This document shows positions 21,109 to 33,494 of a DNA stretch of 64,000 nucleotides, one piece after another; position 1 is the stretch's first letter, and every line of letters begins with the position of its first letter. The stretch is from the IMG/VR virus record IMGVR_UViG_3300020185_000022. One strand, written 5' to 3'. The notes below the pieces were generated by a model. The model made no database searches. It saw nothing but the letters and a program-made list of their open reading frames with translations, and was not told where the DNA came from. The position numbers and the translations under genes are program-made. The stretch is from a virus.

Positions 21109-21112
21109 CTAA

Positions 21113-21541
21113 ATGAAAAAGAAGTGGTTGAACTATAACGACCTAATAGCCCAAGACTATTTCGAGAAGTATGGGCCTGACCTCTGGGCTGAGAAGTACT
21201 TAGAGTACATGTCACAGATTAGTAAGAGAAAAGAATTAGGAACTACTAGACTCAAGAATGGTTGGATTACTAATGAGCCAGTAGATGACTCAGACTTTGA
21301 GATGTCACTTCTCATGGGCAGAGAGTATATTCCTAAGGACTACAAGGGAGGAACTCAAAATCATCTTGGCGAATTGTACAAGGAGGAGCCTAAGAGAGGC
21401 CTAGGAGACATTGTAGAAGCCTTTCTTAGGATGACTGGTATCAAGTGGTTCTATCATAAATTCATCAAGTCAGAGGAAGACTGTGGCTGTGAGAAGAGAA
21501 AAAAGAAATTAAATAATTATGGCAAAGGAAACAACAGTTGA
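21113..21541 (+). CDS. Hypothetical early protein
   Basis: 142 aa. Its C-terminal pattern GLGDIVEAFLRMTGIKW...CGCEKRKKKLN is one I recall from small phage proteins of unknown function. Confidence 0.55.
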   Translation: MKKKWLNYNDLIAQDYFEKYGPDLWAEKYLEYMSQISKRKELGTTRLKNGWITNEPVDDSDFEMSLLMGREYIPKDYKGGTQNHLGELYKEEPKRGLGDIVEAFLRMTGIKWFYHKFIKSEEDCGCEKRKKKLNNYGKGNNS

Positions 21542-21776
21542 AGAGGTAGATGGTAAGACGATTCTTACTGCTGGACCAACAGAGCAAGAATTTATTAGAA
21601 CTCTTAGTGTTTGGGAAGAGACAGATGGTACTAGATATCACTATATGCCCAATGTGCTTAGGAGAATTAGCTCTGATAAGTATGAATTAGTAAGGTGGCA
21701 AGACCTACCTGGAGGAGTACCACAGTTTGTATTAGGACTACCTATGCCTGAAGGAATAGAATCAACAGATGAGTAG
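21519..21776 (+). CDS. Hypothetical protein
   Basis: 85-aa ORF with operon packing. Confidence 0.5.
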   Translation: MAKETTVEEVDGKTILTAGPTEQEFIRTLSVWEETDGTRYHYMPNVLRRISSDKYELVRWQDLPGGVPQFVLGLPMPEGIESTDE

Positions 21777-22098
21777 AGATATGGAACCTTTGACTAAAAT
21801 GATGAAGGTAGAGGTAACTCAGAAGTTGTTTAATTCTATTATGAACAGACGAATATTGTTTAACTCTAATAAGTTTTTCTCTGCAATGGAGCAAGAAGTA
21901 AGAGTTGGAGATGTAGTGATACTAGTCAATCCAAATGGAAGCTATGGAGAAGAAGGACATGTTAGTGCTGTCATGAATACTTCACAAGGAAAAGTTTTGT
22001 ATACTGTGATTCCTTTTCATGGAAATTCTCAATATACAGTAGACAGGGATAGTATTATGTCTAAAATAGAAACATATTATAGTAATGAAATTAAATAG
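21769..22098 (+). CDS. Hypothetical protein
   Basis: 109-aa ORF. Confidence 0.5.
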   Translation: MSRDMEPLTKMMKVEVTQKLFNSIMNRRILFNSNKFFSAMEQEVRVGDVVILVNPNGSYGEEGHVSAVMNTSQGKVLYTVIPFHGNSQYTVDRDSIMSKIETYYSNEIK

Positions 22099-22501
22099 AG
22101 AGAATATCAATAGTCTGCTCATGAACTTTAATGTTTATGCTTTTATAGTTCCTAACGATGTTGTTACTTTTTTCAAGGATTCTGAGCACAGGACCCATTT
22201 AAAATTTTCTATAGGACTAGTCAAAAAAGTCTTAGTAGACTACGATGTTCCTCATTTCAAATATCATATTGAAGATTTTGAGAAGGAAGCAGATGGTAAT
22301 TATCATATCAGAGAAGTATCTCAAGAGTTAATAGAGGGAAAGAGTTACGATAGTTTCTATACTCCTACTGGAGTTTCTTATTCTGTAAGTTCTGAAACAC
22401 ATAAGCACTTAGCTGCTTCTAGAGTACTAGCAGTCCTTACTAATGGTAATTTTTATAGGAATTGGGACTCTTCTAGTAAAGAGGCCTCTATACGCATTTA
22501 G
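22085..22501 (+). CDS. Hypothetical protein
   Basis: 138-aa ORF. Confidence 0.5.
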   Translation: MKLNRENINSLLMNFNVYAFIVPNDVVTFFKDSEHRTHLKFSIGLVKKVLVDYDVPHFKYHIEDFEKEADGNYHIREVSQELIEGKSYDSFYTPTGVSYSVSSETHKHLAASRVLAVLTNGNFYRNWDSSSKEASIRI

Positions 22502-22561
22502 ATATAAAAATATATTTTAGGGGGCTTTTATATGCAACCTCATATAAAGATCCTTAAAGTA

Positions 22562-22570
22562 CCCCCCCCC
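22562..22570. repeat. C9 homopolymer tract in an intergenic region
   Basis: gtaCCCCCCCCCtc, read directly. Confidence 0.9.
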
Positions 22571-22711
22571 TCTTCTAAAAATATTTTCTGAAAAAAATAT
22601 CCTGTGTAGGTCTAAGATGTTACTATCTCCTAGTAGCACCCCTATTGGCAAAAGGCGGATTCGGGTACCCACCGTCTTTCATTTCAATTAATCACTAAAT
22701 TCACCATTATC

Positions 22712-22996
22712 ATGAGTTCATTAGTAAAAAGGTCAGAGGCACCTGAAGTACCTCAAACAATTGAAGAATTTCTTGCAGAGCATGGAAATCCTACAAAAGA
22801 GCCACGAGAAGTAGGAAACTTACGCGTGGTTGATTGCGAGGATGGCACGCCATTAATCGCAATAAATGACAACGTCTATGACGCTGCTTGTGAGAACGAA
22901 GAACTATTCGTTGTTCGTTGGTCACCTAAGCGTGGCAAGCACTTCATCGTTGAGTTGAACAACAACTCTTTTGATGATGACCTTGCTAAGGTCTAA
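22712..22996 (+). CDS. Hypothetical protein
   Basis: 94-aa ORF followed by a clean intrinsic terminator. Confidence 0.55.
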   Translation: MSSLVKRSEAPEVPQTIEEFLAEHGNPTKEPREVGNLRVVDCEDGTPLIAINDNVYDAACENEELFVVRWSPKRGKHFIVELNNNSFDDDLAKV

Positions 22997-23002
22997 GAAC
23001 TT

Positions 23003-23030
23003 GAGCCCTACGGGGCTCATTTCTTTTTTC
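23003..23030 (+). terminator. Intrinsic terminator
   Basis: GAGCCC-tacg-GGGCTC followed by ATTTCTTTTTT. Confidence 0.75.
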
Positions 23031-23516
23031 TCTAAGATGTATAACATCTATCTTGTATAACATATAACCCTGTAAAACTTCCACACCATGGATAGAACTG
23101 AAATATCTTTGTACTTGTCATGCAAGTCAAACAAGACGAAAGTCAACAAAAGAATTACGAATGATGGCACTGTAAAGGCTGCATTCAACAGAGGACAAGA
23201 CTATGCTGAGTCTATCCTTGTAGGTAAGAGTTATCAGCATAAGAATATGAGCAGAGTCAGCCTATGTGAACAACCTAGTTGCAGCTAGGTATTCATTAGG
23301 GTAAACGCACAAATGATTCAATGTGTGAGACTACTAAGACCTACAACAAGCCTGCAAAGCTTGGGAGCTGATCACTCTAAGAAAAGTACTTCGTAGATGG
23401 GAATCCCTATGTATGCTCTGTGTTGTATGATTGGTCACATAAGAAATGCTGAAGAGCTAGAGCTGTCGCTCAAATACTAATTCCTCATAAGCCTACAATG
23501 AGGTAAGAAATAAAAA

Positions 23517-23632
23517 ATAACAAGCTGTATAGTGTGGCTAATCACTTATGCACATAGTGGTAAGATGAATACTAGTCTAATCTGAAGCTTTTCCTGTATA
23601 ACTTGCTCTAAGTGCATTGTATGGCTTGTTAT
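23517..23632 (+). ncRNA. Hairpin module B1 (AGCUG/GGCU family)
   Basis: The closing helix 23517-23536/23613-23632 is 20 bp, 6 of them G:U. The core is AAGCUGUAU opposite GUAUGGCUU. Confidence 0.45.
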
Positions 23633-23717
23633 ATACTTAGTAGAGCTGTCATGACTGATGAATCAAAAGACATGTTAGCAGTAAGTCTCTGCCGTTATGA
23701 TGGTTCTACTAAGTATA
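23632..23717 (+). ncRNA. Hairpin module B2 (AGCUG/GGUU variant): 24-bp helix
   Basis: TATACTTAGTAGAGCTGTCATGAC (23632-23655) pairs with GTTATGATGGTTCTACTAAGTATA (23694-23717). There are 20 Watson-Crick and 4 G:U pairs, uninterrupted, with a 38-nt loop. Confidence 0.55.
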
Positions 23718-23722
23718 ATACA

Positions 23723-23825
23723 GAGCTGTTGAGTAGAAGAACAAAGTAGCAGTAGTGACTGCGATCCCACCAAATTAAGCACATAATGCCTAGTTACGGT
23801 TACTCTAGGGGCTATTCAACGGCTC
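23723..23825 (+). ncRNA. Hairpin module B3 (AGCUG/GGCU family)
   Basis: GAGCTGTTGAGTAG (23723-23736) pairs with CTATTCAACGGCTC (23812-23825), 14 bp including 2 G:U. Inner hairpins are GCAGT/ACTGC and CCTAG/CTAGG. Confidence 0.5.
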
Positions 23826-23843
23826 AATGATACATTTTCAGGG

Positions 23844-23930
23844 GGAAGAAGAGGGGAGTACAACAACACAACAGTTTAGAATAACTGTAAGCGCATTTGT
23901 TGTTCGATACGAACCTCTTCTTTTATTCTG
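23844..23930 (+). terminator. Long composite hairpin ending island B (terminator-like)
   Basis: Three nested helices: 23844-23854/23914-23924 (11 bp including 2 G:U), 23862-23868/23898-23904 and 23871-23876/23883-23888. The 3' side runs into TTTTATT. Confidence 0.45.
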
Positions 23931-24050
23931 ACATTTCAGCACACTCTAAATATACCTCTATTCTCATTTTAAATAGCTTTAGCGCTTAGATCTCTTGGTT
24001 TTGATACCTACATACTAGCGAGCTATTATAACCTCTTAAATCACCTGAAA

Positions 24051-24278
24051 ATGAATACAACTGAAAAACTAGATACTGGAGACATTGAGATACTATTTAC
24101 TCATCTCTATCGCATCATTGAGAACAATAATAGTGATGTTCCTACTAAAGAACTAGTAGATTCATATCTTGCTGATGAGAAACACACAATCAAGTCATTT
24201 CTTGACCTTGTGAAAACAGATCATCCTGAATTCTTAGACTCTGACAGTTATACTATCAGAGCTCTATATAGACTATAA
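24051..24278 (+). CDS. Hypothetical protein
   Basis: 75-aa ORF preceded by a TTAAATCACC junction motif. Confidence 0.5.
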   Translation: MNTTEKLDTGDIEILFTHLYRIIENNNSDVPTKELVDSYLADEKHTIKSFLDLVKTDHPEFLDSDSYTIRALYRL

Positions 24279-24374
24279 CTTATTTACAACTAGATGCATG
24301 TTGTAAGCTCACCAACCTGTATACACAGGACAGAGCTTACCGTGCGCTTATTGTAAGTATTAAATCACATCATC

Positions 24375-24524
24375 ATGAGAGAACTTGTAATTAAAGGCTT
24401 AACTAAACTTGTTATCTACTTCCTGATGTTAATTGTTGCTAGCTTAATGACTATTGTCTTTCTATTCTTTGCTTTTTCTTCAGCAATTGTAGTTATGCAT
24501 ATGCTCATAGCTGCGTTCTCTTAA
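24375..24524 (+). CDS. Small membrane protein (49 aa)
   Basis: Below the track cutoff. My translation: MRELVIKGLTKLVIYFLMLIVASLMTIVFLFFAFSSAIVVMHMLIAAFS. It is preceded by TTAAATCAC. Confidence 0.45.
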   Translation: MRELVIKGLTKLVIYFLMLIVASLMTIVFLFFAFSSAIVVMHMLIAAFS

Positions 24525-24546
24525 ATCACCCCTTAAATCAATCACC

Positions 24547-24831
24547 ATGAAACTATTCATTTTATTTATAATCTTACTCCTAAGCACAGCTTGTGAGAAA
24601 GAACAATACATCTATCGCATTTATTACACTCAGACATGTATTGAGTGGAGTGATGGTAGTACAGAGAAATCATCTCATAGTAGATGGCCTTTAGACCATG
24701 TTGCTACTGAACTAGAAAAAGAATTCATGATTCAAATGTACCTTAACAGTGTTACAGAGAACAGTGACTTTGATAAATCATGTTACAAAGACATGTATGT
24801 AGAACTATGCACTGAATGTACACAGTATTAA
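24547..24831 (+). CDS. Probable lipoprotein
   Basis: Signal peptide plus Cys, MKLFILFIILLLSTAC, followed by EKEQ. Confidence 0.55.
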   Translation: MKLFILFIILLLSTACEKEQYIYRIYYTQTCIEWSDGSTEKSSHSRWPLDHVATELEKEFMIQMYLNSVTENSDFDKSCYKDMYVELCTECTQY

Positions 24832-24896
24832 ATCATATAAGACAAGGAGTGTAAACAGCGCTCCTATGTCTTGCTTTTCTTTAACATCACATAGTT

Positions 24897-25190
24897 ATGG
24901 CATATAAACTACCTGTAGATTACAACTCATTAGATTGGCGTAAAGGTGAAAAGCGTGCTGTTAGAGAGCAGTATGTTAAAGAACAAGACGGTAAATGTAT
25001 GTATTGTGGTACACCATTAAATAGTGGACCACCTCATGCAATTACTGACAAAAACATTAATTGGGACTTATTCCCACCAAATTTCCTAAAACATCCTGTG
25101 CATCTACAACATGACCATGAAACTGGTATGACTGAAGGTGCTGTACATGCTTACTGTAATGCAGTATTATGGCAGTATGAAGGAAGATAA
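24897..25190 (+). CDS. Endonuclease VII-type (His-Me finger) nuclease
   Basis: 97 aa with CMYCGTPL ... LQHDHETGMTEGAVHAYCNAVLW, matching the EndoVII pattern C..C ... DHDH.tG..rG..C..CN. Confidence 0.65.
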   Translation: MAYKLPVDYNSLDWRKGEKRAVREQYVKEQDGKCMYCGTPLNSGPPHAITDKNINWDLFPPNFLKHPVHLQHDHETGMTEGAVHAYCNAVLWQYEGR

Positions 25191-25201
25191 ATCACGTTGT
25201 T

Positions 25202-25456
25202 ATGAAGACAATTAACAAATCTTATCTTCGAACATTCATTGCAGTGCTTATTATTCTAGTTGTTGGACATGTTCTAACATCTTGTGATACAATGCCTACT
25301 TCTTTCACAGTAAAAGACATGGAGACTACGAAACCTACTCTCCCAGTTCCTACTTGTAAGGTGACTTTGCATAGTAATTATGGAGACTCTTATTATATTA
25401 TTTGTCCCTGTGATTCAGTGAATGTTGGGGATACATACATAGTTTTAAAACAATAA
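25202..25456 (+). CDS. Probable lipoprotein
   Basis: Signal peptide with an LTSC lipobox (…VVGHVLTSCDT). Confidence 0.55.
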   Translation: MKTINKSYLRTFIAVLIILVVGHVLTSCDTMPTSFTVKDMETTKPTLPVPTCKVTLHSNYGDSYYIICPCDSVNVGDTYIVLKQ

Positions 25457-25476
25457 TAATCATTAAATCAAATACC

Positions 25477-25845
25477 ATGAAGTATCTTAAAACGCTTTGG
25501 CCAGCATTTATAGCCTTAATTCTTATTGCTTGTGCTACAATTGCTCTTAGTAGTTGTACCAAAAATGATGATGACATCGAAAAAGTTGTAAGTAATACAA
25601 TTGCACAAACCCAAGCTACATGCTGGGAGTGTGAATTTGGAGCAACTTACATGCTTTGGGAAGTAAATTCTCAAGGTGATACTGTAGCTAGTATGTGGAG
25701 AGTTACAGTCCAAGACTCTGTGATGTATAATCCAGACATTGATAGTAATTATTACTATAGTAGTAGTACTGTTGCGATTCCAGTAGTAGTTGATTCATTG
25801 TATCATGATGACTTGTACATTAGAAATTGTACTAAAACTCCATAG
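25477..25845 (+). CDS. Probable lipoprotein, possibly surface-exported
   Basis: Signal peptide with an LSSC lipobox followed by TKNDDDIE. The acidic run after the Cys resembles the Bacteroidota lipoprotein export signal. Confidence 0.55.
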   Translation: MKYLKTLWPAFIALILIACATIALSSCTKNDDDIEKVVSNTIAQTQATCWECEFGATYMLWEVNSQGDTVASMWRVTVQDSVMYNPDIDSNYYYSSSTVAIPVVVDSLYHDDLYIRNCTKTP

Positions 25846-25847
25846 TT

Positions 25848-26099
25848 ATGATGAAAAACAACAACAACATAAGAGAGTATCTCAAAGCATTTGGGATACC
25901 TCTCTTAGTTTTAGTACTGCTATCATTAGCAGGTAACTGGCTACACTATCATATAGTTATTACTGTTTTGTATTTTGTTCTAGCTTGTGTTTATGGCGGA
26001 ACTTTAATTTTTGCAGCAAGAAAACTTAATTCTTTTTTACCTGTACTTATCATAGGTATTCTATTGCAAGCTGCTTGTTTACTTTTAGTTTTTACATAA
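25848..26099 (+). CDS. Small integral membrane protein
   Basis: 83 aa, about three hydrophobic helices. Confidence 0.5.
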   Translation: MMKNNNNIREYLKAFGIPLLVLVLLSLAGNWLHYHIVITVLYFVLACVYGGTLIFAARKLNSFLPVLIIGILLQAACLLLVFT

Positions 26100-26111
26100 T
26101 ACCAATAACTC

Positions 26112-26408
26112 ATGACAAAGAAAAAACAAAATCTATGTGTTAGCTGTAAACACTGGCACAGCGGACAAAAAGACATAAATTATCATGAAGATATCGGTAT
26201 TTGTGTAAATCCTGATATGGCATTTAATATTACAGATGGAAGAAAAGCTGGAATATTAGATCAAAAAAATCTTAAAAATAGAACACATGTCACAGGCAAT
26301 TGTGCTCATGATTTTGAACACAAAAAGAGTGCTGTCGTACCTTCTAGATATTCACTTGTTACAAATGAGTTATTTGGGTGTATACTTCATATAAAACGTA
26401 ATGAGTAG
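26112..26408 (+). CDS. Cys-containing hypothetical protein (possible Zn-binding)
   Basis: 98 aa with CVSCKHWH ... GICVNP ... GNCAHD. Confidence 0.45.
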   Translation: MTKKKQNLCVSCKHWHSGQKDINYHEDIGICVNPDMAFNITDGRKAGILDQKNLKNRTHVTGNCAHDFEHKKSAVVPSRYSLVTNELFGCILHIKRNE

Positions 26409-26751
26409 TCTAAGCAAAAAAGAATTTTATGAGATTATGAATTATAATTTATTAACTCATAAAACTCTAAATAATGTTAGAGGAGAAAGACTTCCTTATA
26501 ACATAACGCAAGAGGACACTTATTGGGAATACTACATCAAAGATTTAGAGGTAGACGATATACTCTATATTCCTTCCCATAAAGGAAAAAAAATAAAGGC
26601 TTTATGGGGAATAAGTTCATTTGAAAAGATTGGAGATATGAGGATAATTAAGTTCAATAGGCTGGAGCCAACTTCAACAAGCACGTTTAGAACTAATGAG
26701 TTCATAACCTTTCCAATGGACAGTAGAACTTACTTTAGAATACTAAGATAA
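26401..26751 (+). CDS. Hypothetical protein
   Basis: 116-aa ORF, the last gene before ORF-free island C. Confidence 0.5.
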   Translation: MSSLSKKEFYEIMNYNLLTHKTLNNVRGERLPYNITQEDTYWEYYIKDLEVDDILYIPSHKGKKIKALWGISSFEKIGDMRIIKFNRLEPTSTSTFRTNEFITFPMDSRTYFRILR

Positions 26752-26857
26752 TTAAGCTGTATGTGTTTCTAATTACTCAGCATCGACCGATATCTATCGG
26801 TTGTACTATAGTAGTTAGTGAATAGATCAAAATCAAAACTGAAACCATACGGCTTAA
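26752..26857 (+). ncRNA. Hairpin module C1 (AGCUG/GGCU family)
   Basis: TTAAGCTGTATG (26752-26763) pairs with CATACGGCTTAA (26846-26857), 12 bp with 1 U:G. Its 5' flank aligns with that of B1. An inner hairpin is ACCGATA-tct-TATCGGT. Confidence 0.5.
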
Positions 26858-27406
26858 GAAGCCCTGATAAATACACGAGACCACTTGTGTATAAATAGGC
26901 AGATACCTGTGGTCAGGTATTGGGATGAACTTGGAATTTAAATTCAGGGTCCCGCAGGATAGAAGAGCAAGTGAGCTATCTCTTTAATATACCTGTGAAG
27001 AAAAAAACATAATTAGCAATCTGTAAATATATGATGTCTATAGAAGCGCGGTGTTGGCTACACCCTCAAGGGTAACTTAAATTACTGGTATTAAGCTATA
27101 TCAATGACTAATTATTATAACTCTCATCCAATTGCTGGTCTGCACCACTCTAAAATTGGGTTCTTCAAAACCAAAGCACTATAAACTTGGAATGTTGCAA
27201 CATATCTCCTCGCGTTTGGGCAGTACAATAGTCATCAAGGATCGCAACCTTGTGAGAGTTAACTTACTTAAGAACATAAGACAGTGCAGTGAGGAATGCT
27301 GAAAAGGCGGGGAAAACTAGTAACTAGAGAACCGTAATCCTATAACCTGATAAATGTTCTTAACTTATTCAAGGTGAGTACTCAAGCCTTTATGGTGGAG
27401 TACACT

Positions 27407-27639
27407 AAACTACCTAGCTGATAACAAACAGCAATGAGTCTTGAGAATAGACTGAACCCCGATGGGCGGATTGGGAATAAACAAAATGAGGTCCATTGAA
27501 TATGTTTATCAGTGTAACCACTACCAAGAGTGGTGATGTTTGTTTGATGAGTTAGTATATTAAGATGTGGACTCCCATTGGGGGAGAAGCTAGTCTTAAT
27601 GAAATCTTCCACAACACTTGGAAGTGGGCTAGGTAGTTT
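27407..27639 (+). ncRNA. Domain C2 closed by an AGCU/GGCU helix
   Basis: AAACTACCTAGCT (27407-27419) pairs with GGCTAGGTAGTTT (27627-27639), 13 bp with 1 U:G, spanning about 230 nt. TT follows. Confidence 0.45.
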
Positions 27640-27667
27640 TTCATTAAAATCTTAAAACATTTCAATC

Positions 27668-28024
27668 ATGGACAAGAAAATATTCAATGAGGACTCATTA
27701 GGTGAGGAAATCAAAAAGCAGTGGGGAGAGTTTGGCGCTCACTACGAAGTATACCAAATGCTTCTAAAGGCATTAAAGGCAACGGAGAAAAGCGAATACA
27801 CAGAATGGGCAGGTCAACGTCAGATAATGCACGACAAGATAGAAACCCTTCAGCAAGAACTCAAAAGGGTGAATCTTAGTAAATCGCTATTGGCCTTTGA
27901 GTTAAAAACATTGCAAGGATTTCACACGGAGTTGTACAATAAGGTTGAGGCTGACGAAACAATAGAGCCTATTACTAAATACGTATCTCCAGAGGATTTA
28001 GATGAACTAACCAACAACCAATAG
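27668..28024 (+). CDS. Hypothetical protein (helical)
   Basis: 118-aa ORF. Confidence 0.5.
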   Translation: MDKKIFNEDSLGEEIKKQWGEFGAHYEVYQMLLKALKATEKSEYTEWAGQRQIMHDKIETLQQELKRVNLSKSLLAFELKTLQGFHTELYNKVEADETIEPITKYVSPEDLDELTNNQ

Positions 28025-28267
28025 AGAGATGAACTCAAAAATAGGAAGAACTTATAGCGTAGTTAAATTTAGGTGGGTCAGGTTCAGAAGGCTTTTTCCT
28101 AATGGAATCAAAATAATAGAACCAACAACAAGTAGAAAGTAATAGTTTATCACACGCTGAAGAACGGAAGGCTGCCTCTATATAGTCCTATGTTGAAAAA
28201 AACTCTCAGATGAATAAGAGGGACTATTATACCTATATCAAATATTAATCACCAAATACCTTGAATT

Positions 28268-28456
28268 ATGGAAGATTACACTTCTATGTCTGTAGAGGAC
28301 ATTAAACAGGAAATGACTAGACTTGAGAACGAAGTAGAGTTAAAGAAAGAAGCTCGTAGGAGTAGTAAAGAAGAGCGAACTAAGCTTTATGAACTTGAGG
28401 AGATACTCAGGGACAGATATATTACTCATGTAGTAAATGAAGATCTTATATCATGA
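28268..28456 (+). CDS. Hypothetical coiled-coil protein
   Basis: 62-aa ORF whose stop overlaps the next start (ATGA). Confidence 0.45.
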   Translation: MEDYTSMSVEDIKQEMTRLENEVELKKEARRSSKEERTKLYELEEILRDRYITHVVNEDLIS

Positions 28457-28740
28457 AAAAGTTTGAAGATTTGCTACAATATGAAATCAACATGGCAATT
28501 GAAAATGTTGATGTACTACGAAGAGTGTGCAATGCACTCTGGGAAAGTTATGGGGAAACAAGTGATGAAGGTTACTTAACTACTCATGAACAAAATCTTG
28601 AACGTCTAGCATTTGCACAACAACGTGTGACTAGACTTACTGATTTAGCTGCTCATTTTAAAGAAGAGTGGGATAACATCAGAATGGACAATGCCACTGT
28701 GTACATGGAAATGGGCACATTAGCTTTTAGTCTAAACTAA
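28453..28740 (+). CDS. Hypothetical protein
   Basis: 95-aa ORF. Confidence 0.5.
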   Translation: MKKFEDLLQYEINMAIENVDVLRRVCNALWESYGETSDEGYLTTHEQNLERLAFAQQRVTRLTDLAAHFKEEWDNIRMDNATVYMEMGTLAFSLN

Positions 28741-28861
28741 TACATACAAGGACTAAGTAGTAAGAGCATAGCTGTTATGGTTATAATAAGTACAGGAATT
28801 ATGTCTTGGAAATTTTAGCTGTAATGGCGCTCTTCACTACGCGTCCATAATACATACCATC

Positions 28862-29227
28862 ATGATTACTCTGATTATAACAATTTACGTAGTTATCTGT
28901 CTACACATGACTTACAGATTAACATTTGAATTTAATGAGCATGTTGATAATACTATTAATTGGCACCATCCTGTGCCATTTACTTTGTGGTTCTTAATTA
29001 TACTTTTAGGCGTTAGTCTAGTTATATTTTCTATGATGTTTAAAAGACTTTTTAAGAATATTATTATGGTATATCTTGCTTATAAACTGCAGAAAAAATT
29101 AAAGGAAGTTATGGGAGAAACTTCTCCTGAAATGACAAAGCAATTGCAAGGAAGCTTAAGAAAACTTACTTGGGATGTGTTTACTTCTTCTTACATTAGA
29201 TTTCGTCCTAAAGACAGAAAATCTTAA
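28862..29227 (+). CDS. Membrane protein
   Basis: 121 aa, two to three hydrophobic helices. Confidence 0.5.
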   Translation: MITLIITIYVVICLHMTYRLTFEFNEHVDNTINWHHPVPFTLWFLIILLGVSLVIFSMMFKRLFKNIIMVYLAYKLQKKLKEVMGETSPEMTKQLQGSLRKLTWDVFTSSYIRFRPKDRKS

Positions 29228-29243
29228 TCATTAAAAACTAGCC

Positions 29244-29648
29244 ATGACACATATATTTTACTTTTTTACTCTTTTTGCTTTAGCTTGGGAGTATAAAAAC
29301 TTTACTGATCCATATGCAGTAAAGCGTTGGGCTGATTATGCTAAAAAGCATATGAAAAAAGAGAATGTAGAGAGCAGAAAGAAAGCTGGAGAAGAAATAA
29401 TAGAAAGTAGTGTAGTTTTCTTTTTCCCTTTGAATCTTTTGTATATGTTCTGGGCATTTGTAGGATTATTCACTTCACAGTGGGCATTGTTTGCTGCATT
29501 ATACCTATTATCTCTGATAAAGAGAAAAGATAGGTCAGCTACATATCGTCGTATTAACGGCTTTATTAGCTTTTGCATCCTAGTGTTTATAATACTAAAC
29601 AAGTACCATTTTAAACTGGACTTGTGGTCCATGCTTACTAGCATGTAA
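29244..29648 (+). CDS. Membrane protein
   Basis: 134 aa, about four hydrophobic helices. The antisense ORF 29336..29680 is judged a shadow. Confidence 0.5.
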   Translation: MTHIFYFFTLFALAWEYKNFTDPYAVKRWADYAKKHMKKENVESRKKAGEEIIESSVVFFFPLNLLYMFWAFVGLFTSQWALFAALYLLSLIKRKDRSATYRRINGFISFCILVFIILNKYHFKLDLWSMLTSM

Positions 29649-29763
29649 TGCAGAAAATTTGCTGTAGTGCCTTCCCCCAAGAGAGTGAGAGAATTAAAGT
29701 TGAGTCACAATTGGCACTGCAGTTCATTTAAAGAAATAATCAAATTCTCCAACACCATTACAT

Positions 29764-30189
29764 ATGGATGAAAAAACTAAAAAAATATTCGAACGAGCTA
29801 TAGTATCTGGGAACACTGAATTAGTGTCTAAAATGTTACTTAGCGATCTTCTTAAAAATGTTACTAATGCATCTGATCCATTTAATGCACCTGGTCCACT
29901 AACAGAATATTTAGATGGCAAGAAAGAGTCTGTTTGGTCTAAACGTGTAGCCATGGATAAGTATGATCCTCTAGAAGAGAAGCTTGCAGCTTCTAGGCTT
30001 TGTAAAAACCATGAAAGGGATATTAAAAGAGCCTTGACAGACTTTAGACTGTCCAAAGGTATGATAACTCCTAAACTCTTTTCGTTTTTATTTTTGAATG
30101 AGATTGATGTTGACTTACGTATACTTCTTCATTCAGAATTTGTGAAACTTGTTGATGATATTATTAGTAAGTCTAATGAGCTTAAATAG
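29764..30189 (+). CDS. Hypothetical protein
   Basis: 141-aa ORF. The antisense ORF 29724..30056 is judged a shadow. Confidence 0.5.
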   Translation: MDEKTKKIFERAIVSGNTELVSKMLLSDLLKNVTNASDPFNAPGPLTEYLDGKKESVWSKRVAMDKYDPLEEKLAASRLCKNHERDIKRALTDFRLSKGMITPKLFSFLFLNEIDVDLRILLHSEFVKLVDDIISKSNELK

Positions 30190-30535
30190 AAGAGAAAAAA
30201 GAGCCGCTGCAAGAGCAGAGAAGTTAGGAACTTTATTAAAGGACTCTCCTAAAATAGCAACAAAAGATTACAGTAATTTACGTGGAAACTTTGCTACTAC
30301 TATAGAACACTGGATTACTAGATCAAGATTTAAGTATATCGAAAGATGTAAAAGGTCTATAAAAAAATCTAATCGTAGAAGAAAGAACAGAGTGAATAAA
30401 AGAGTCTTTGATAATCTTATCTTAAATGGACTGGTTATAAGTAGTAATATTGAGCATATTCAAGCTTTCTCTCTTTCTATTCCCCATGTACTAACTAAAG
30501 AATTTAAAGAAACACTTTATAGTTGGAAATTTTAA
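30176..30535 (+). CDS. Basic hypothetical protein
   Basis: The track ORF starts at 30149. I prefer the ATG at 30176 (MSLNRREKRAAARAEK...). The protein is strongly Arg/Lys-rich. Confidence 0.45.
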   Translation: MSLNRREKRAAARAEKLGTLLKDSPKIATKDYSNLRGNFATTIEHWITRSRFKYIERCKRSIKKSNRRRKNRVNKRVFDNLILNGLVISSNIEHIQAFSLSIPHVLTKEFKETLYSWKF

Positions 30536-30984
30536 TACTAAATCAAATTAGAAAAATTCTTGCAAACGAAAAAGAAGTTGCAAAACTTCTTGGATAATAC
30601 AATACGAGGTCACACGCAAGTGTTGAGGACTATTCTCGTGTTAAGGGGAACTGAAATCCTTTCAGCCCTAATATTGAAACTGTATAGTAATGTGCAGAAT
30701 ACTACTGGATGTATGCCATAAAGCCAGAATAATAGTATTGGAAGTTGGCAGCTTGACCATTTATTTAGCCCACGCTAGAATGTAGGACGTAAAGCCCTTG
30801 TCTAGAGAGTAGGACGACATAAATGGTGCTAAAACTTTTAAATATTCAGGTGCATAGTATCAAATAAAGTGGAGAGTGTGAGTACTCTATCGAGCCAGAA
30901 GCTCTTTCTACACATTTGATGTAATTAACCTTCAAAAGCCACAGGCAGAGATCCGAACTGCTAGATATTATGTGCCTTAGAATA

Positions 30985-31055
30985 TTAGCTGTGCGTACAT
31001 ACTTTCAAGGGCCAGACGCTTAACCTGGATTCCTGAAAGTGTATGCATTGGCTAG
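30985..31055 (+). ncRNA. Hairpin module D1 (AGCUG/GGCU family)
   Basis: TTAGCTGTGCGTAC (30985-30998) pairs with GTATGCATTGGCTAG (31041-31055), 14 bp including 4 G:U, with a 1-nt bulge. This stacks on ACTTTCA/TGAAAGT (7 bp) and then CCAG/CTGG. Confidence 0.5.
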
Positions 31056-31103
31056 ATAGTAATCTGTAGAACAGTAGGGCGTTCTACTCATTTGTCAGAG
31101 TTT

Positions 31104-31152
31104 AGAGAGGGGGTTTTGAGGTGTCATGCCCTTTCGTTTCCCCCTCTTTATC
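31104..31152 (+). terminator. Hairpin ending island D (terminator-like)
   Basis: AGAGAGGGGG (31104-31113) pairs with CCCCCTCTTT (31140-31149). The U-tail is weak. Confidence 0.4.
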
Positions 31153-31165
31153 TCGCTTAACTAAA

Positions 31166-31173
31166 TACGTTTG
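31166..31173 (+). promoter_or_regulatory. TAnnTTTG box
   Basis: TACGTTTG ends 2 nt before the ATG at 31176, just after the island-D terminator-like hairpin. Confidence 0.4.
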
Positions 31174-31175
31174 AA

Positions 31176-31511
31176 ATGAATAAATTTCATAATCATATTC
31201 ACCTCGACGGAGGAACTGTCATTACTGCTGTAGGTGAATATAATGACCAAGCTATGTGCTTGGAAGTAGGAATGGCAGTATGTTCTAATAGAGATAATTG
31301 GAACAGAAGAAAAGGCAACATGATTGCCAAAGGAAGACTCGATAAAGGTAGACTTTTCGCAAGTATTCCAATGAAAGGTGAACCATCTGTAGAGATGTGG
31401 AAATCTTACATGCTCGAAACTAAAGTCAAAATCGCTGACCAAGTTGAGCAAGAGAATGTTACCCCCAAGAATTTAAGAGTGGCTCGAATTGTCGATGTTA
31501 CTAAAGCATAA
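31176..31511 (+). CDS. Hypothetical protein
   Basis: 111 aa. The TACGTTTG box ends 2 nt before the ATG, so the mRNA is possibly leaderless. Confidence 0.5.
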   Translation: MNKFHNHIHLDGGTVITAVGEYNDQAMCLEVGMAVCSNRDNWNRRKGNMIAKGRLDKGRLFASIPMKGEPSVEMWKSYMLETKVKIADQVEQENVTPKNLRVARIVDVTKA

Positions 31512-31526
31512 TTCATGGTGAATTGA

Positions 31527-31606
31527 AGAGCTGTAAGCTTACTTCTAAGATTACTCTGGTTCCCGCTGGTTCCTTTAGGGTGCTTAGGAGTTTTGCTTAT
31601 GGCTTT
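31527..31606 (+). ncRNA. Hairpin module E1 (AGCUG/GGCU family)
   Basis: AGAGCTGTAAGC (31527-31538) pairs with GCTTATGGCTTT (31595-31606), 12 bp including 3 G:U. It stacks on ACTTCTAAG/CTTAGGAGT (9 bp, 1 U:G). Confidence 0.5.
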
Positions 31607-31629
31607 ATTGTTAACATAATAACTTGAAA

Positions 31630-31929
31630 ATGACTCTTTTACAAGAAAAATTACCGTGGAATGATAAAAATGTTATCAAATTTCACAGAGCAATGAAGAT
31701 CATGAGTGATCTTTATCCTAAGCTCCCTAGGTTTACAACAAGAAAATTTAGAGGATCAAAGTCTTCCCATAATAATCTAAGTAAGATGTTTATCTGGCGT
31801 TCATTTGAGATACGCTGCGTGAATTTCTTTTTAAGATTACCGAAAGAAAACTTACAAAGTAAGTATTTCGACAGAAAAGAGAAGAGTTTTAATCCGAATG
31901 GTATGGAGTCAGAATCCCCAACCAGTTAG
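31630..31929 (+). CDS. Doubtful ORF (basic, 99 aa)
   Basis: The track ORF 31624..31929 begins at a TTG; the first ATG is at 31630. It lies inside an otherwise ORF-free, structured island. Confidence 0.3.
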   Translation: MTLLQEKLPWNDKNVIKFHRAMKIMSDLYPKLPRFTTRKFRGSKSSHNNLSKMFIWRSFEIRCVNFFLRLPKENLQSKYFDRKEKSFNPNGMESESPTS

Positions 31930-32121
31930 TACCCTTAGTAATAAATACAACTAGCATTTGTCGTGCTAGGCCTGCCTTGCAATCAATAATCAGGTTGACA
32001 CACCTTGCAGCTATGTGGGTTCCCCACAATAGTCATAGAAGTGAGAAACACAGAAGTAGTAATAGATGGCATGCTACAAGGACTTTATTGCTTTGGGTTA
32101 ACTGGTAAATTTAATTTAATC

Positions 32122-32877
32122 ATGGACGAAAGAAAAATAAAAAGAGCTGCTTCTCTCATTAGAGATGAAATAGCACCGAAAATCAAAAAAGGATACTTAG
32201 AAGAAGGTCCTAAATATGGAGGAGGAGTACATATGATTTATGTGACTCCTGCTGACATATTTGAAAAGAAACCTCAACTAGAATCTTTACTTACTAGTGC
32301 AGGACTTACAGAAAAGGTCAGAGTTATCAATGATTCAGAACTGAAAATCTTTATATGGAATATGGATCCTCTAGTTGCAGGACATGTCCCAAAAGAGGTC
32401 ATGAGGAATATGGTAGAAGATTTGATATCAATGAATAATTGGGAAAATAGTACTAGTGCCTTAACTAGAATTGTTTCCAATATTCATAGCATGCCTGCTC
32501 CTGATCTAGGTAAAGCTCTTTGTACTATTCTAGCTAATCTTACTGGTGCAACTGCAGCTGATAGCATAGATTACATGGGATACGTATCTCATGCTTCTAT
32601 GATTAGAGCAGATATATTGGAAAAAACTGATCCAGATATTAAGACAACAGAGCAGTTTTGGGAAAAATATTCTGATGTAAAATCACATCCTGCACATTTA
32701 GACTCACTTATTATTAAGTTTGAATCTAAAGAAGATGAAAAGCCTACTATGGTTTCTTATCTAATTAACAATTTTAATGTGGATGCTGATATCCACGAGT
32801 ATTCAGAAAAAGCTGAAGGGCATGTTAGGTCAGGTGACTTAGGAAACTTTTGGAAGCTTTACAAAATGAATCTTTAG
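32122..32877 (+). CDS. Hypothetical protein
   Basis: The track ORF starts at 32005. I prefer the ATG at 32122 (MDERKIKRAASL...). Confidence 0.5.
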   Translation: MDERKIKRAASLIRDEIAPKIKKGYLEEGPKYGGGVHMIYVTPADIFEKKPQLESLLTSAGLTEKVRVINDSELKIFIWNMDPLVAGHVPKEVMRNMVEDLISMNNWENSTSALTRIVSNIHSMPAPDLGKALCTILANLTGATAADSIDYMGYVSHASMIRADILEKTDPDIKTTEQFWEKYSDVKSHPAHLDSLIIKFESKEDEKPTMVSYLINNFNVDADIHEYSEKAEGHVRSGDLGNFWKLYKMNL

Positions 32878-32879
32878 AT

Positions 32880-33494
32880 ATGAAAAAAATACTTTTTGCA
32901 ATGTTTCCTAAATTATTTGGAAAAGAACGAACAGAAATCAGAGAAGAGAAGATTTCTTCAGATGAAGAGTTGAAAGACTTTTCAGAAAAAGCTGCTATAT
33001 TTTCAAACAACTTTGAAGATTTAGTATCAGAAGCTGATAGAATCAAAATCAAAAACTTCAAGAAGGACATAGCTCCTGTAGTGTATAGTCATGATTCTAA
33101 AAGTTTACTTGATGCCCTTAATGTTGTAGAGGGCAGAGGTAAAGAACTACTTGATAATTATAGATATGTAGTCAAAGAAGCTCAAGAAATAACTAAAGAG
33201 CCTTTATCTACTTCTACTAATCTTCAAATTATGGACGACATAAGTCAGTCTAGAGCAGAACTTTTGTGGCTTGTCTACAATGTAGCTTCTAATAATTTAG
33301 ATACAAATTCTTCATTTCTAGACAGTTCTCTTGAAACTAAAAGTATGGTAGTTTCAGTTGGGCCTGATGGAAAGCCTAATGTTGAAGGAGAGGATTTTGA
33401 TAAACTTCCTCCTCCTGTACAAGAAGCAATTCTAAAAATCCTTAAGAAAAGAGGAGGCATTGAAGGACTCGATGGCTTTGATTTCGGAGGATAA
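32880..33494 (+). CDS. Hypothetical protein
   Basis: The track ORF starts at 32850. I prefer the ATG at 32880 (MKKILFAMFPK...), just after the upstream stop. Confidence 0.5.
   Translation: MKKILFAMFPKLFGKERTEIREEKISSDEELKDFSEKAAIFSNNFEDLVSEADRIKIKNFKKDIAPVVYSHDSKSLLDALNVVEGRGKELLDNYRYVVKEAQEITKEPLSTSTNLQIMDDISQSRAELLWLVYNVASNNLDTNSSFLDSSLETKSMVVSVGPDGKPNVEGEDFDKLPPPVQEAILKILKKRGGIEGLDGFDFGG

What the first reader, a model, noticed from the sequence alone, without database searches (positions are those of the whole stretch)
22997..32121. About 4 kb of ORF-free DNA split into islands inside the early gene block
Phage genomes are usually more than 90% coding. Within this 9-kb stretch, however, 22997-24050 contains only a doubtful 66-aa ORF. 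26752-27667 and 30536-31175 lack any convincing ORF. 31512-32121 contains one doubtful 99-101-aa ORF. TAA, TAG and TGA all occur in every frame. In island D, for example, TAA hits all three frames within 110 nt. TAG or TGA reassignment therefore cannot rescue coding capacity. Islands B and D end in large terminator-like hairpins, and the gene after island D is preceded by a TAnnTTTG box, which suggests non-coding transcription units. Several hairpins have GNRA-type loops, such as GCAA at 30580-30583.
Basis: partly seen in the sequence, partly recalled or inferred. Interest (0 to 1): 0.75.

Follow-up and report, generated by a model that had tools for sequence, protein, structure and literature searches.

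The report
Non-coding RNA islands in crAss-like phage
Four gene-free stretches in the early genes of a marine crAss-like phage really are non-coding, and one of them carries a previously unlisted, strongly conserved folded RNA element found in the early regions of well over a hundred related uncultured phages; what that RNA does is still unknown.

Summary
The window is a ~92 kb marine crAss-like phage. The four ORF-free islands exist at the stated coordinates. They total 3.2 kb, not 4 kb. Coding density is 62% in 22997-32121 against 96% elsewhere in the window. No single stop-codon reassignment opens them. Their short ORFs have near-zero codon-usage signal and no homologues.

Island B holds one copy (27118-27262, + strand) of a structured RNA element I call R1. 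It has a closing helix, a mini-hairpin, a variable arm and a conserved hairpin whose loop can pair with the mini-hairpin loop, giving a cloverleaf-like layout. A covariance model finds 106 copies in 94 sources. Pairing is 99.4%, with compensatory changes in 9 of 13 pairs. R1 is absent from Rfam 15, GenBank phages and the searched literature. It usually sits in ORF-free gaps (median 638 nt).

Islands A, C and D and the rest of B have no detectable relatives, and their folding energies match those of coding controls. Their RNA role is therefore inferred. The inference rests mainly on Cellulophaga phage phi14:2, whose early intergenic regions are abundantly transcribed; I find that one of them contains a tmRNA gene. 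The non-coding status is solid. R1 is new but its function is unknown.

The parts
22997..24050 (+). Island A: 1054 nt with no convincing ORF. It holds only a 66-aa ORF (23088-23288) that has weak codon signal and no homologues.
   Evidence: 0.097 bits per codon; only self in 5.8 billion proteins.
23002..23029 (+). Intrinsic-terminator-like hairpin (TGAGCCC-TACG-GGGCTCA plus a T run) directly after the stop of gene 22712-22996. It marks the 5' edge of island A.
23627..23722 (+). Long imperfect hairpin with 29-nt arms, 79% complementary. It is the strongest local structure in island A (150-nt window z = -4.1).
   Evidence: a chance-level miRNA-like Rfam hit that only reflects the hairpin shape.
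23902..23924 (+). Terminator-like hairpin plus a T-rich tail near the 3' end of island A. It lies about 125 nt before the next gene (ATG at 24051).
26752..27667 (+). Island B: 916 nt with no same-strand ORF of 60 aa or more. The short ORFs present have negative codon-usage scores.
26784..26803 (+). Very stable hairpin (CGACCGAU-AUCU-AUCGGUUG) just after the stop of gene 26401-26751. The 150-nt window has z = -8.8.
27118..27262 (+). R1 element, a conserved structured RNA. P1 pairs 27118-27126 with 27253-27261. The mini-hairpin pairs C27128-G27138 and C27129-G27137, with loop AAUUGCU. The variable arm P2 spans 27139-27235. P3 pairs 27236-27240 with 27248-27252, with loop AUCGCAA. The proposed loop-loop pairing is 27132-27135 (UUGC) with 27244-27247 (GCAA).
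   Evidence: 58.2 bits, E 3e-11; plus strand 58.2 bits, minus strand 9.9 bits.
27517..27544 (+). Terminator-like hairpin (ACCACU-ACCAAG-AGUGGU plus a U-rich tail) about 255 nt downstream of R1 and about 120 nt before the next gene (ATG at 27668). It could mark the 3' end of an R1-containing transcript.
   Evidence: Analogous arrangements of R1, small hairpin and terminator occur in related loci.
30536..31175 (+). Island C: 640 nt with no same-strand ORF of 60 aa or more.
30572..30591 (+). 8-bp hairpin with a GCAA (GNRA) tetraloop at 30580-30583. A second GCAA-loop hairpin is centred on 30616-30619.
31103..31150 (+). Large G+C-rich terminator-like hairpin (UAGAGAGGGGG ... CCCCCUCUUUA) ending island C. 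It is followed by TACGTTTG (31166-31173) and the ATG at 31176.
31512..32121 (+). Island D: 610 nt whose only sizeable ORF (31630-31929, 99 aa) has weak codon signal and no true homologue. Whether it codes stays open.
   Evidence: 0.086 bits per codon; the only non-self hit is a repetitive 894-aa protein; BLASTP E = 0.8.

Best explanation
The four islands are non-coding segments of the rightward (plus-strand) early gene block of an uncultured marine crAss-like phage. I infer that they are transcribed with, or between, the early genes and give structured non-coding RNAs, as documented for phi14:2.

Island B carries R1, a member of a widespread phage-specific RNA family. An 8-9 bp closing helix (ACUCUCA/UGAGAGU) encloses three parts: a 2-3 bp mini-hairpin (CC-AA(UU)GCA-GG), a hypervariable arm of 0 to about 150 nt, and an invariant-looking hairpin (CAAGG-(G/A)UUGCAA-CCUUG) that abuts the 3' strand of the closing helix. 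The mini-hairpin loop can pair with the last hairpin's loop. The result is a four-helix, cloverleaf-like junction with a D-loop/T-loop-style contact.

My best guess at a mechanism is inferred, not shown. R1 would be a cis-acting module that defines or protects the ends of stable early RNAs. It could be a tRNA-like substrate or mimic for a host tRNA-processing enzyme such as RNase P or RNase Z, or it could cleave itself.

Shown: the islands are non-coding; R1 is a strand-specific, covarying structure; R1 occurs in crAss-like early regions inside long ORF-free gaps. Inferred: transcription, stability and the processing role. For islands A, C and D, that they make functional RNA at all is also inferred.
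For: Non-coding status.

Orientation: R1 scores 58.2 bits on the plus strand and 9.9 on the minus strand. G-U pairs (20 cells) outnumber non-pairs (8) in the alignment. Family members are co-oriented with flanking genes. The islands keep the purine skew of the plus-strand block.

R1 is real. Smith-Waterman score of island B against L006 is 74, against 34.8 +/- 3.5 for shuffles. There are 106 covariance-model hits in 94 sources. Pairing is 99.4%, 9 of 13 pairs show compensatory change, and 0 of 500 shuffles reach this. The mini-hairpin and the loop-loop pairing each have a few compensatory cases. The short 5' block never co-occurs with the 5-nt loop (Fisher p = 8e-8). RNAalifold on a 7-sequence subfamily recovers all four helices on its own, with 9 compensatory pairs overall, several of them in P2.

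Specificity. A control 15-mer gives 98 IMG/VR hits, of which 4 are R1-associated. The R1 15-mer gives more than 119 hits, of which about 100 are R1.

Context. The loci carrying R1 share late genes next to the early block (window ORFs 11836-14247, 14269-16458 and neighbours, function not assigned) with the window. R1 sits in ORF-free gaps of median 638 nt, and 43 of 66 are 500 nt or longer. In several loci R1 is followed by a small hairpin and a terminator, and some contigs have arrays of up to 4 copies that punctuate small units.

Precedent: phi14:2 early intergenic regions are transcribed at high level from the earliest time point and persist. One of them contains a tmRNA gene.

Population data: none of 14 variable sites among five near-identical genomes fall in the islands.
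Against: Only 145 of 3220 island nucleotides have comparative support. Whole-island folding z-scores do not differ from those of coding controls. No expression data exist for this phage, and its host is unknown. phi14:2 lacks R1, and its intergenic regions show no similarity to these islands.

The tRNA-like reading is loose. P1 is 8-9 bp rather than 7. There is no CCA and no T-loop consensus. ARAGORN and the Rfam tRNA model do not detect it. Some family members carry two extra hairpins between P3 and P1.

Retrieval by an exact 15-mer inflates the apparent sequence invariance of P1 and P3. The absence of SNPs in the islands is not significant (expected 2.2, P about 0.09).
Confidence: 0.55

Rival explanations
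1. Apart from R1, the islands are decayed genes or neutral spacer DNA with no RNA function. They would be remnants of rapidly turning-over early genes.
For: No homologue of islands A, C, D or the flanks of B was found in any relative. Folding energy is no different from coding DNA. Early genes in this clade turn over so fast that none of the window's early proteins has a detectable homologue. A degenerate R1 remnant in L014 shows that such elements do decay.
Against: Phage genomes are under strong size constraint, and the rest of this window is 96% coding. No frame-shifted protein similarity was found by tblastn. A terminator-like hairpin lies near the 3' end of islands A, B and C. Long ORF-free gaps recur in the clade and carry conserved modules. 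The analogous regions in phi14:2 are highly expressed. No SNPs fall in the islands (weak evidence).
Confidence: 0.2
2. The islands encode several very small proteins (under about 60 aa), or the 66-aa and 99-aa ORFs are real orphan genes. In that case the region is ordinary, densely coding early DNA with mini-genes.
For: Metagenome gene callers did call 23088-23288 (66 aa) and 31630-31929 (99 aa). Their codon scores are slightly positive (+0.097 and +0.086). Real neighbouring genes are orphans too, so a lack of homologues does not exclude coding.
Against: Those two ORFs score well below the flanking small plus-strand genes that have clear coding signal (+0.16 to +0.45 bits per codon), and together they cover only about 500 of 3220 nt. 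Islands B and C have no plus-strand ORF with a positive score. No peptide conservation was found. R1 shows an RNA-type conservation pattern, with indels that are not multiples of three and compensatory pairs.
Confidence: 0.12
3. R1 is a small mobile or recombinogenic DNA element (MITE-like, or a module-boundary sequence) rather than a functional RNA. Its conserved ends would be terminal inverted repeats.
For: The ends are conserved and the interior is hypervariable. The element is patchy among relatives, occurs in several copies per contig, leaves remnants, and the same R1 variant is found in different flanking contexts. Some members have a perfect 12-nt inverted repeat, ACTCTCATCCAA / TTGGATGAGAGT.
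Against: The interiors differ completely between copies but still form covarying helices. G-U pairs and strand-specific scores point to a single-stranded plus-sense molecule. The orientation always matches the flanking genes. No transposase or nuclease is consistently nearby; the most common neighbour family is in 20 of 104 loci. No target-site duplications were seen in the flanks (looked at by eye only).
Confidence: 0.1
4. The islands are coding but disguised, through an alternative genetic code, self-splicing introns that interrupt genes, or a replication origin.
For: crAss-like phages are known for TAG/TGA recoding and introns (Yutin et al. 2021, PMC7886860, abstract seen). The phage encodes a protein with a DnaA C-terminal domain.
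Against: No single reassignment opens the islands. The window has no suppressor tRNA. The long genes are intact in the standard code. No group I or II intron or any other Rfam family matches, even at E up to 1. Island A starts right after a strong terminator, so the upstream gene is complete. There is no clustering of DnaA boxes and there are no iterons or tandem repeats.
Confidence: 0.03

Closest known systems
Early long non-coding RNAs of Cellulophaga phage phi14:2 (Drobysheva et al., bioRxiv 10.1101/2020.03.07.982082; published in Nature 2021)
   Same: It is a marine crAss-like phage. Long ORF-free regions (705 nt, 1.7 kb and 292 nt) lie among small early genes upstream of the DNA polymerase and have the same orientation as the early genes. 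They are reported as transcribed rightward from the earliest time point at higher levels than most genes, with function undetermined.
   Different: There is no sequence similarity to the islands here. phi14:2 lacks R1. Its region contains a tmRNA gene, which the window lacks. phi14:2 has a PolB polymerase and this phage has PolA.
tRNA and tRNA-like structures (tmRNA tRNA-like domain, bacterial Y-RNA-like YrlA, viral tRNA-like 3' ends, mascRNA)
   Same: The layout has four helices. A closing stem directly abuts a 5-bp hairpin with a 7-nt loop, as the acceptor stem abuts the T arm. A small hairpin follows the 5' strand, like a D arm, and its loop can pair with the last hairpin's loop, like the D-loop/T-loop elbow. 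A variable arm takes the place of the anticodon arm. The comparison with these families rests on my own knowledge of their architecture.
   Different: The closing stem is 8-9 bp. There is no CCA or discriminator pattern, the loop is (G/A)UUGCAA rather than UUCRANY, and there is no anticodon arm of fixed size. ARAGORN and Rfam tRNA/tmRNA models do not detect it. Some members insert two hairpins between P3 and P1.
Small self-cleaving ribozymes of phage-like metagenomic regions (hatchet, pistol, twister, twister-sister; Weinberg et al. 2015, cited from memory)
   Same: The conserved core is about 46-50 nt with an optional variable stem. It has a pseudoknot or loop-loop contact and highly conserved junction and loop nucleotides. 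It occurs in non-coding stretches of uncultured phage contigs. One R1 locus has a bona fide hatchet ribozyme 680 nt upstream (L098 46-208, 81 bits).
   Different: No Rfam ribozyme model matches R1. The co-occurrence with hatchet was seen once in 20 loci scanned. No cleavage site can be inferred. Self-cleavage is untested.
Cis-acting phage antiterminator RNAs (put RNAs of HK022)
   Same: It is a structured RNA of about 70-150 nt in an early operon, co-oriented with the genes and lying upstream of terminator-like hairpins that must be read through for downstream genes to be expressed.
   Different: There is no sequence or structural similarity. The RNA polymerase that transcribes early crAss-like genes is a virion-packaged enzyme. 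The idea is purely positional.
Large phage-associated structured RNAs (GOLLD, ROOL)
   Same: These are non-coding RNAs of several hundred nucleotides encoded by phages or prophages, often near tRNAs, with unknown function.
   Different: The islands have no Rfam match. Only a 145-nt part shows conservation.

Membership tests
Recoded (alternative genetic code) coding region | Long open frames appear when TAG or TGA (or TAA) is read as sense | tested here: not met
   the longest stretch under any single reassignment is 169 aa (island A, minus strand). Plus-strand stretches are at most 134 aa. All three stops occur in every frame.
Recoded (alternative genetic code) coding region | A suppressor tRNA is encoded by the phage | tested here: not met
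   ARAGORN finds no tRNA in the 64-kb window. About 28 kb of the roughly 92-kb genome lies outside the window and was not examined.
tRNA | Detected by tRNA-specific models (ARAGORN, Rfam RF00005) | tested here: not met
   there is no tRNA hit on 27050-27320, even at E up to 10.
tRNA | Cloverleaf of four helices with the T-arm 3' strand abutting the acceptor 3' strand | tested here: met
   (RNAalifold consensus): P1, mini-hairpin, P2 and P3, with no spacer between P3 and the P1 3' strand in the canonical members. Six variants with inserted hairpins are an exception.
tRNA | 7-bp acceptor stem, T-loop UUCRANY, 5-bp/7-nt anticodon arm | tested here: not met
   P1 is 8-9 bp, the loop is (G/A)UUGCAA, and P2 ranges from 0 to about 150 nt.
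tmRNA | ARAGORN or Rfam RF00023 detection with a tag-peptide reading frame | tested here: not met
   for the window. It is met for phi14:2, which shows that the tools can find it in this phage group.
Known self-cleaving ribozyme classes (hammerhead, twister, twister-sister, pistol, hatchet, HDV-like, hairpin) | Match to the Rfam covariance model of the class | tested here: not met
   no match at gathering score or at E up to 1-10.
Known self-cleaving ribozyme classes (hammerhead, twister, twister-sister, pistol, hatchet, HDV-like, hairpin) | Site-specific self-cleavage in vitro | not testable with these tools
   This needs transcription of 27100-27280 and incubation with Mg2+.
Group I / group II intron | Match to Rfam intron models, and flanking ORFs that join into one gene | tested here: not met
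   no intron model matches. Island A follows a terminator after a complete gene. The flanking ORFs have their own starts and stops. Exon joining was not tested with homologues because none exist.
crAss-like early long non-coding RNA regions (phi14:2 type) | Long ORF-free stretches inside the early gene block, co-oriented with it | tested here: met
   for the window and for phi14:2. They recur in relatives L006, L014, L025 and L064 and around R1.
crAss-like early long non-coding RNA regions (phi14:2 type) | Abundant early transcription that persists late in infection | not testable with these tools
   No expression data exist for this uncultured phage.
crAss-like early long non-coding RNA regions (phi14:2 type) | Sequence or structure homology with the phi14:2 regions | tested here: not met
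   no R1 in L206, and the best Smith-Waterman z of 3.7 is within noise for 570 comparisons.
R1 family (defined here) | P1 ACUCUCA/UGAGAGU, junction UCCAA(UU)GCAGG, P3 CAAGG-(G/A)UUGCAA-CCUUG, on the gene-sense strand | tested here: met
   58.2 bits, E 8e-12, plus strand only. The window copy deviates at two positions (GCUGG in place of GCAGG; loop AUCGCAA).
Replication origin | Clustered initiator boxes, iterons, and an AT-rich unwinding element | tested here: not met
   3 DnaA-box-like sites against 7.4 expected, and no tandem repeats in the islands. The islands are slightly richer in G+C (0.36-0.39) than the flanks.

The most novel reading that the evidence does not exclude
R1 is a new class of catalytic or enzyme-recruiting RNA. 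It would be either a new self-cleaving ribozyme or a minimal cloverleaf mimic that recruits host tRNA-processing or tRNA-binding machinery. Environmental crAss-like phages would use it to cut and stabilise early non-coding RNAs, and the surrounding orphan islands (A, C, D) would be lineage-specific cargo RNAs of the same system, for example decoys against host defence or takeover RNAs.
Probability: 0.15. Interest if true: 0.85.

Novelty: new variant of a known kind. Interest (0 to 1): 0.6.

Why it matters
crAss-like phages are among the most abundant viruses known. The only transcriptome of a marine member showed that early long non-coding RNAs out-express most genes, with no function assigned.

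This window shows that the same architecture occurs in an unrelated, globally sampled marine lineage. It also yields a concrete handle: a compact RNA fold supported by covariation, present in over a hundred phage contigs and absent from Rfam, from cultured phage genomes and from the searched literature.

A conserved element of about 50 nt core size can be tested directly for cleavage, RNase P or RNase Z processing and protein binding. It can also serve as a marker to find non-coding islands in other phages. The side observation that part of the phi14:2 'long non-coding RNA' is a tmRNA gene suggests that these islands hold bona fide stable RNAs rather than junk.

Tried and rejected
1. Known RNA families. 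Rfam 15 at gathering threshold on the whole window, and at E up to 1-10 on 20000-33000 and 27050-27320, gave nothing meaningful. ARAGORN gave nothing.

2. Close relatives for covariation. GenBank phages in near and distant mode gave no match. Exact-protein look-up found only genomes at least 99.95% identical. Homologue searches with the 111-aa and 66-aa proteins found only themselves. The closest PolA relatives are 46% identical. The search for related loci with two flanking proteins found nothing. A metagenome scan with a window-specific R1 pattern returned 0 hits, and that collection evidently lacks this phage. A scan for the window-type P3 loop returned only chance hits plus 4 copies of an unrelated downstream module.

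3. nhmmer with whole islands against 80 relatives' loci gave no hit at E up to 10. This run also missed R1, which pairwise Smith-Waterman then found.

4. Smith-Waterman of all island parts against 57 ORF-free gaps of the 15 closest loci, including phi14:2, gave nothing beyond noise.

5. Similarity between the islands: none.

6. Thermodynamic evidence. Sliding-window and whole-island z-scores do not differ from coding controls.

7. TAnnTTTG as a promoter signal: not enriched. No conserved motif lies upstream of R1.

8. A protein partner for R1: no neighbour family occurs in more than 20 of 104 loci.

9. Association with known ribozymes: one hatchet in 20 loci scanned.

10. Origin of replication, tandem repeats, recoding and introns were all rejected.

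11. The apparent homologue of the 99-aa ORF is a spurious match to a repetitive protein.

Full report
WHAT THE WINDOW IS. The 504-aa protein at 7633-9147 (minus strand) matches the Crassvirus major capsid family (E 7e-95). The window also encodes a family-A DNA polymerase (35119-37104), helicases, a DnaB-like protein, a primase-like protein, a uracil-DNA glycosylase and MoxR/vWA-type proteins. Genes run leftward in 1-20600 (the block that holds the capsid gene), rightward in 21113-58171 (small early genes, then replication genes), and leftward again from 58168. Exact-protein look-up finds the same genome as 92.1-92.6 kb contigs in ENA, JGI and Logan assemblies. These contigs are 99.95-100% identical to the window over 20 kb. 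The nearest other phages have a DNA polymerase only about 46% identical. GenBank phages show no nucleotide similarity. This is therefore an uncultured marine crAss-like phage that stands alone at roughly genus level or above.

THE OBSERVATION. ORF listing confirms gaps at 22997-24050, 26752-27667 and 30536-31175. The stretch 31512-32121 holds only a 99/101-aa ORF. All three stop codons occur in all six frames of each island. Reading any one of them through leaves at most 169 aa open (island A, minus strand) or 134 aa (plus strand). A codon-usage log-odds trained on 33 long genes gives +0.16 to +0.45 bits per codon for the flanking small plus-strand genes with clear coding signal. It gives -0.20 to +0.13 for every ORF inside the islands, including the 66-aa (+0.097) and 101-aa (+0.086) ORFs. 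Six-frame peptides from the islands find nothing by tblastn in 2.5 Mb of related phage DNA. The 66-aa ORF has no homologue among 5.8 billion proteins. The only non-self hit of the 99-aa ORF among 1.8 billion representatives is a repetitive 894-aa protein that BLASTP scores at E = 0.8. Same-strand ORFs of 60 aa or more cover 62% of 22997-32121 and 96% of the rest of the window.

Some details need correcting. The islands total 3220 nt rather than about 4 kb. The TAnnTTTG box and the big hairpin belong to the third island, and the box is not enriched in the window (55 against 70 expected). The GCAA-loop hairpin at 30572-30591 is as described. Terminator-like sites are enriched in the region (23 against 5.9), and one lies near the 3' end of islands A, B and C.

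WHAT IS IN ISLAND B. Ungapped searches and nhmmer with whole islands found nothing in 80 loci anchored on polymerase homologues. ORF-free gaps of 500 nt or more do recur upstream of the polymerase in the closest clade (L006, L014, L025, L064). Pairwise Smith-Waterman then showed that window 27069-27366 aligns with L006 3585-3866 at score 74, against 34.8 +/- 3.5 for shuffles. The alignment consists of short near-identical blocks (ACTCTCATCCAATTGC.GGT and CAAGG.T.GCAACCTTGTGAGAG) separated by indels that are not multiples of three.

About 100 of them also have the 5' block at 50-200 nt. As a control, another 15-mer returned 98 contigs, of which 4 were related. A scan with the 5' block alone returned largely the same loci. 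I built a covariance model (R1) from 33 diverse members with only two helices specified. It finds 106 copies in 94 sources but only one in the window (27118-27262; 58.2 bits on the plus strand, 9.9 on the minus strand).

STRUCTURE OF R1. On the 106-sequence alignment the two specified helices are 99.4% paired, and 9 of 13 pairs show changes on both sides (42 cells). No shuffle of 500 reaches any measure, and slid controls collapse to 31-53% paired. Copies that do not contain the exact search word show clean compensation, for example CUCUUG/CAAGAG, ACUUUUA/UAAAAGU and CAGGG/CCCUG.

Two further features have weaker support. The first is a mini-hairpin that pairs CC with GG around the loop AA(UU)GCA, with three compensatory cases. 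The second is pairing of that loop with the P3 loop: position 19-242 is C-G in 96 sequences, U-A in 3 and U-G in 1. The short form of the 5' block never occurs with the 5-nt P3 loop (0 of 55 against 18 of 46; p = 8e-8). That association could be partly phylogenetic.

RNAalifold on a 7-member subfamily, given no structure, returns all four helices with 9 compensatory pairs overall, several of them in the variable arm. The layout is a four-helix junction. The last hairpin (5 bp, 7-nt loop) abuts the 3' strand of the closing helix, and the first small hairpin touches its loop. This is a cloverleaf-like arrangement, but it fails every sequence-level definition of a tRNA. Six members carry two extra hairpins between P3 and P1. 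The smallest member is 46 nt and has no variable arm.

WHERE R1 OCCURS. It is not in Rfam 15 or in 50,697 GenBank phage records. Among 185,579 species-representative genomes it occurs only on six MAG contigs of 4-118 kb assigned to unrelated phyla, which look like binned phage. It is not in phi14:2, and its sequence blocks do not appear in the searchable literature.

Loci carrying R1 share with the window the late-block genes that adjoin the early block (window ORFs 11836-14247, 14269-16458 and neighbours; function not assigned), at up to 49-56% identity. They share none of its early proteins. R1 is thus conserved where the surrounding proteins have diverged beyond recognition. It is intergenic and co-oriented with its neighbours. 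It lies in ORF-free gaps of median 638 nt, and 43 of 66 are 500 nt or longer. Some contigs hold 2-4 copies. In several loci it is followed by a small hairpin and a terminator. It has no conserved upstream motif and no constant protein neighbour.

THE OTHER ISLANDS. Islands A, C and D and the flanks of R1 in B are unrelated to each other, to the gaps of the 15 closest loci, and to the phi14:2 intergenic regions. Whole-island folding z-scores on the plus strand (-4.2, -3.4, -5.5, -4.8) lie within the range of eight coding controls (-1.6 to -5.7). Only local hairpins stand out. Among five near-identical genomes, 14 variable sites were found and none lies in an island. The expectation is 2.2, so this is not significant. 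There is no sign of an origin of replication. For these parts, 'functional RNA' is an inference from genome economy, terminator placement and the phi14:2 precedent.

PRECEDENT. Drobysheva et al. report that two long intergenic regions among the early genes of the marine crAss-like phage phi14:2 are transcribed rightward from the earliest time point, more strongly than most genes. Unlike early mRNAs, these RNAs do not decline later, and their functions are 'to be determined'. The RefSeq record shows ORF-free stretches at 1279-1983, 2905-4601 and 5626-5917, where small ORFs were removed in 2020. ARAGORN finds a tmRNA gene at 4031-4500 with tag peptide GSSVQKLAMVA*. Rfam's tmRNA model scores it 46.0 bits (threshold 47, E about 6e-17). 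The preprint does not mention this. So at least part of that long non-coding RNA is a classical stable RNA.

MECHANISM. Three things are shown. The islands are non-coding. R1 is a plus-sense, covarying, phage-specific fold. R1 marks ORF-free islands in crAss-like early regions. My preferred reading is that the islands are transcribed with the early block and yield stable RNAs. In that reading R1 is a cis module that sets or protects RNA ends, either as a tRNA-like signal for a host tRNA-processing enzyme or by self-cleavage. The supporting points are its compact conserved core, its position at unit boundaries and in arrays, the sharp onset of conservation at its 5' edge, and the terminators that follow it. 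Antitermination and protein binding remain open, and I put no more than about 0.3 on the processing role specifically. The rival explanations are decayed DNA, mini-proteins, a mobile DNA element, and recoding, introns or an origin. They are weighed in their own sections. The first cannot be excluded for islands A, C and D.

NOVELTY. ORF-free, highly expressed early regions are already documented in one crAss-like phage, so the phenomenon itself is not new. What is new is its occurrence in this lineage and in relatives. The R1 family in particular matches no described family that I could test.

Noticed in passing
L206 (Cellulophaga phage phi14:2, NC_021806) 4031-4500, + strand: A tmRNA gene (ARAGORN tag peptide GSSVQKLAMVA*; Rfam RF00023 46.0 bits against a threshold of 47, E about 6e-17). 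It lies inside the 1.7-kb ORF-free region between g004 and g006, which the phi14:2 transcriptome paper describes as a highly expressed long non-coding RNA of unknown function. The RefSeq record has no RNA feature there.
   Followed up: partly
L098 46-208, + strand (IMGVR_UViG_3300042907_001450): A bona fide hatchet self-cleaving ribozyme (RF02678, 81.1 bits, E 7e-17) lies 680 nt upstream of an R1 copy (886-1001). No other known ribozyme was seen in the 20 loci scanned.
   Followed up: partly
L217, L219, L221, L223, L232, L235 (positions listed): These R1 variants have two extra hairpins between P3 and the P1 3' strand. The 3' end, TTGGATGAGAGT, is a perfect 12-nt complement of the 5' block ACTCTCATCCAA, next to a local copy of ATCCAA. 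This suggests alternative pairings or a recombination product.
   Followed up: no
L098 about 823-880; also L144, L189, L195, L166, L118 just upstream of R1: A recurrent hairpin module, ACCACAAGGTTTCAGGCATAACCTCTCATCCTGTAAAGCAGGGGTTGACTTGTGGT followed by a T run, directly precedes R1 in several loci. It contains an R1-like CTCATCC...GCAGG sub-motif. Other recurrent modules follow R1, for example AAAGGACGTGATATTCGTCG followed by a terminator. These islands look like mosaics of shared non-coding modules.
   Followed up: partly
L102 10105-10907 and 14634-14730: Four R1 copies lie on one contig (one degenerate). Three of them are within 800 nt and bracket an 81-codon ORF and short non-coding units, an array-like 'punctuation' arrangement.
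   Followed up: partly
window 21101-21115 and 31166-31178: A TAnnTTTG box ends 4 and 2 nt before the ATG of genes 21113-21541 and 31176-31511. This spacing would imply leaderless or nearly leaderless mRNAs if the boxes are Bacteroidota -7 promoter elements. The motif is not enriched overall.
   Followed up: partly
window 20785-20818 (divergent region between late and early blocks): The sequence ATTTCTTTGTGTTACTTTCTTTGTT is shared with L151 8398-8432 (87% over 39 nt) and, more weakly, with L102 6260-6295. In L151 it lies about 1.4 kb upstream of that locus's R1. It may be a conserved regulatory element at the start of the early block.
   Followed up: no
window 46735-47877, 53645-55066, 55066-57444: The phage encodes two MoxR/AAA_5-type ATPases (bpMoxR E 4e-25; AAA_5 plus CbbQ_C) and a 792-aa protein with a CobT-type vWA domain. 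This is a MoxR-vWA pair inside the replication block of a crAss-like phage.
   Followed up: no
window 24897-25190: Among the orphan early genes, this 97-aa protein matches endonuclease VII / HNH-type PHROG families (phrog_14729 E 3e-35; phrog_423 E 1e-7). It may be a free-standing nuclease between islands A and B.
   Followed up: no
L035 4354-7141 and L064 10001-12900: The DNA polymerase A match spans about 2.8-2.9 kb for about 620-660 residues in these two relatives. In L035 an ORF-free 522-nt stretch (4264-4785) lies at the start of the match. This suggests an intron or other insertion in the polymerase gene.
   Followed up: no
L032 17061-17428, - strand; L025 2330-2402; L060 1036-1109: ARAGORN reports another tmRNA in a polymerase-anchored relative (L032). 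In L025 a tRNA lies directly after the ORF-free gap, and in L060 a tRNA lies within it. Stable-RNA genes are therefore a recurrent content of these early-region gaps.
   Followed up: no
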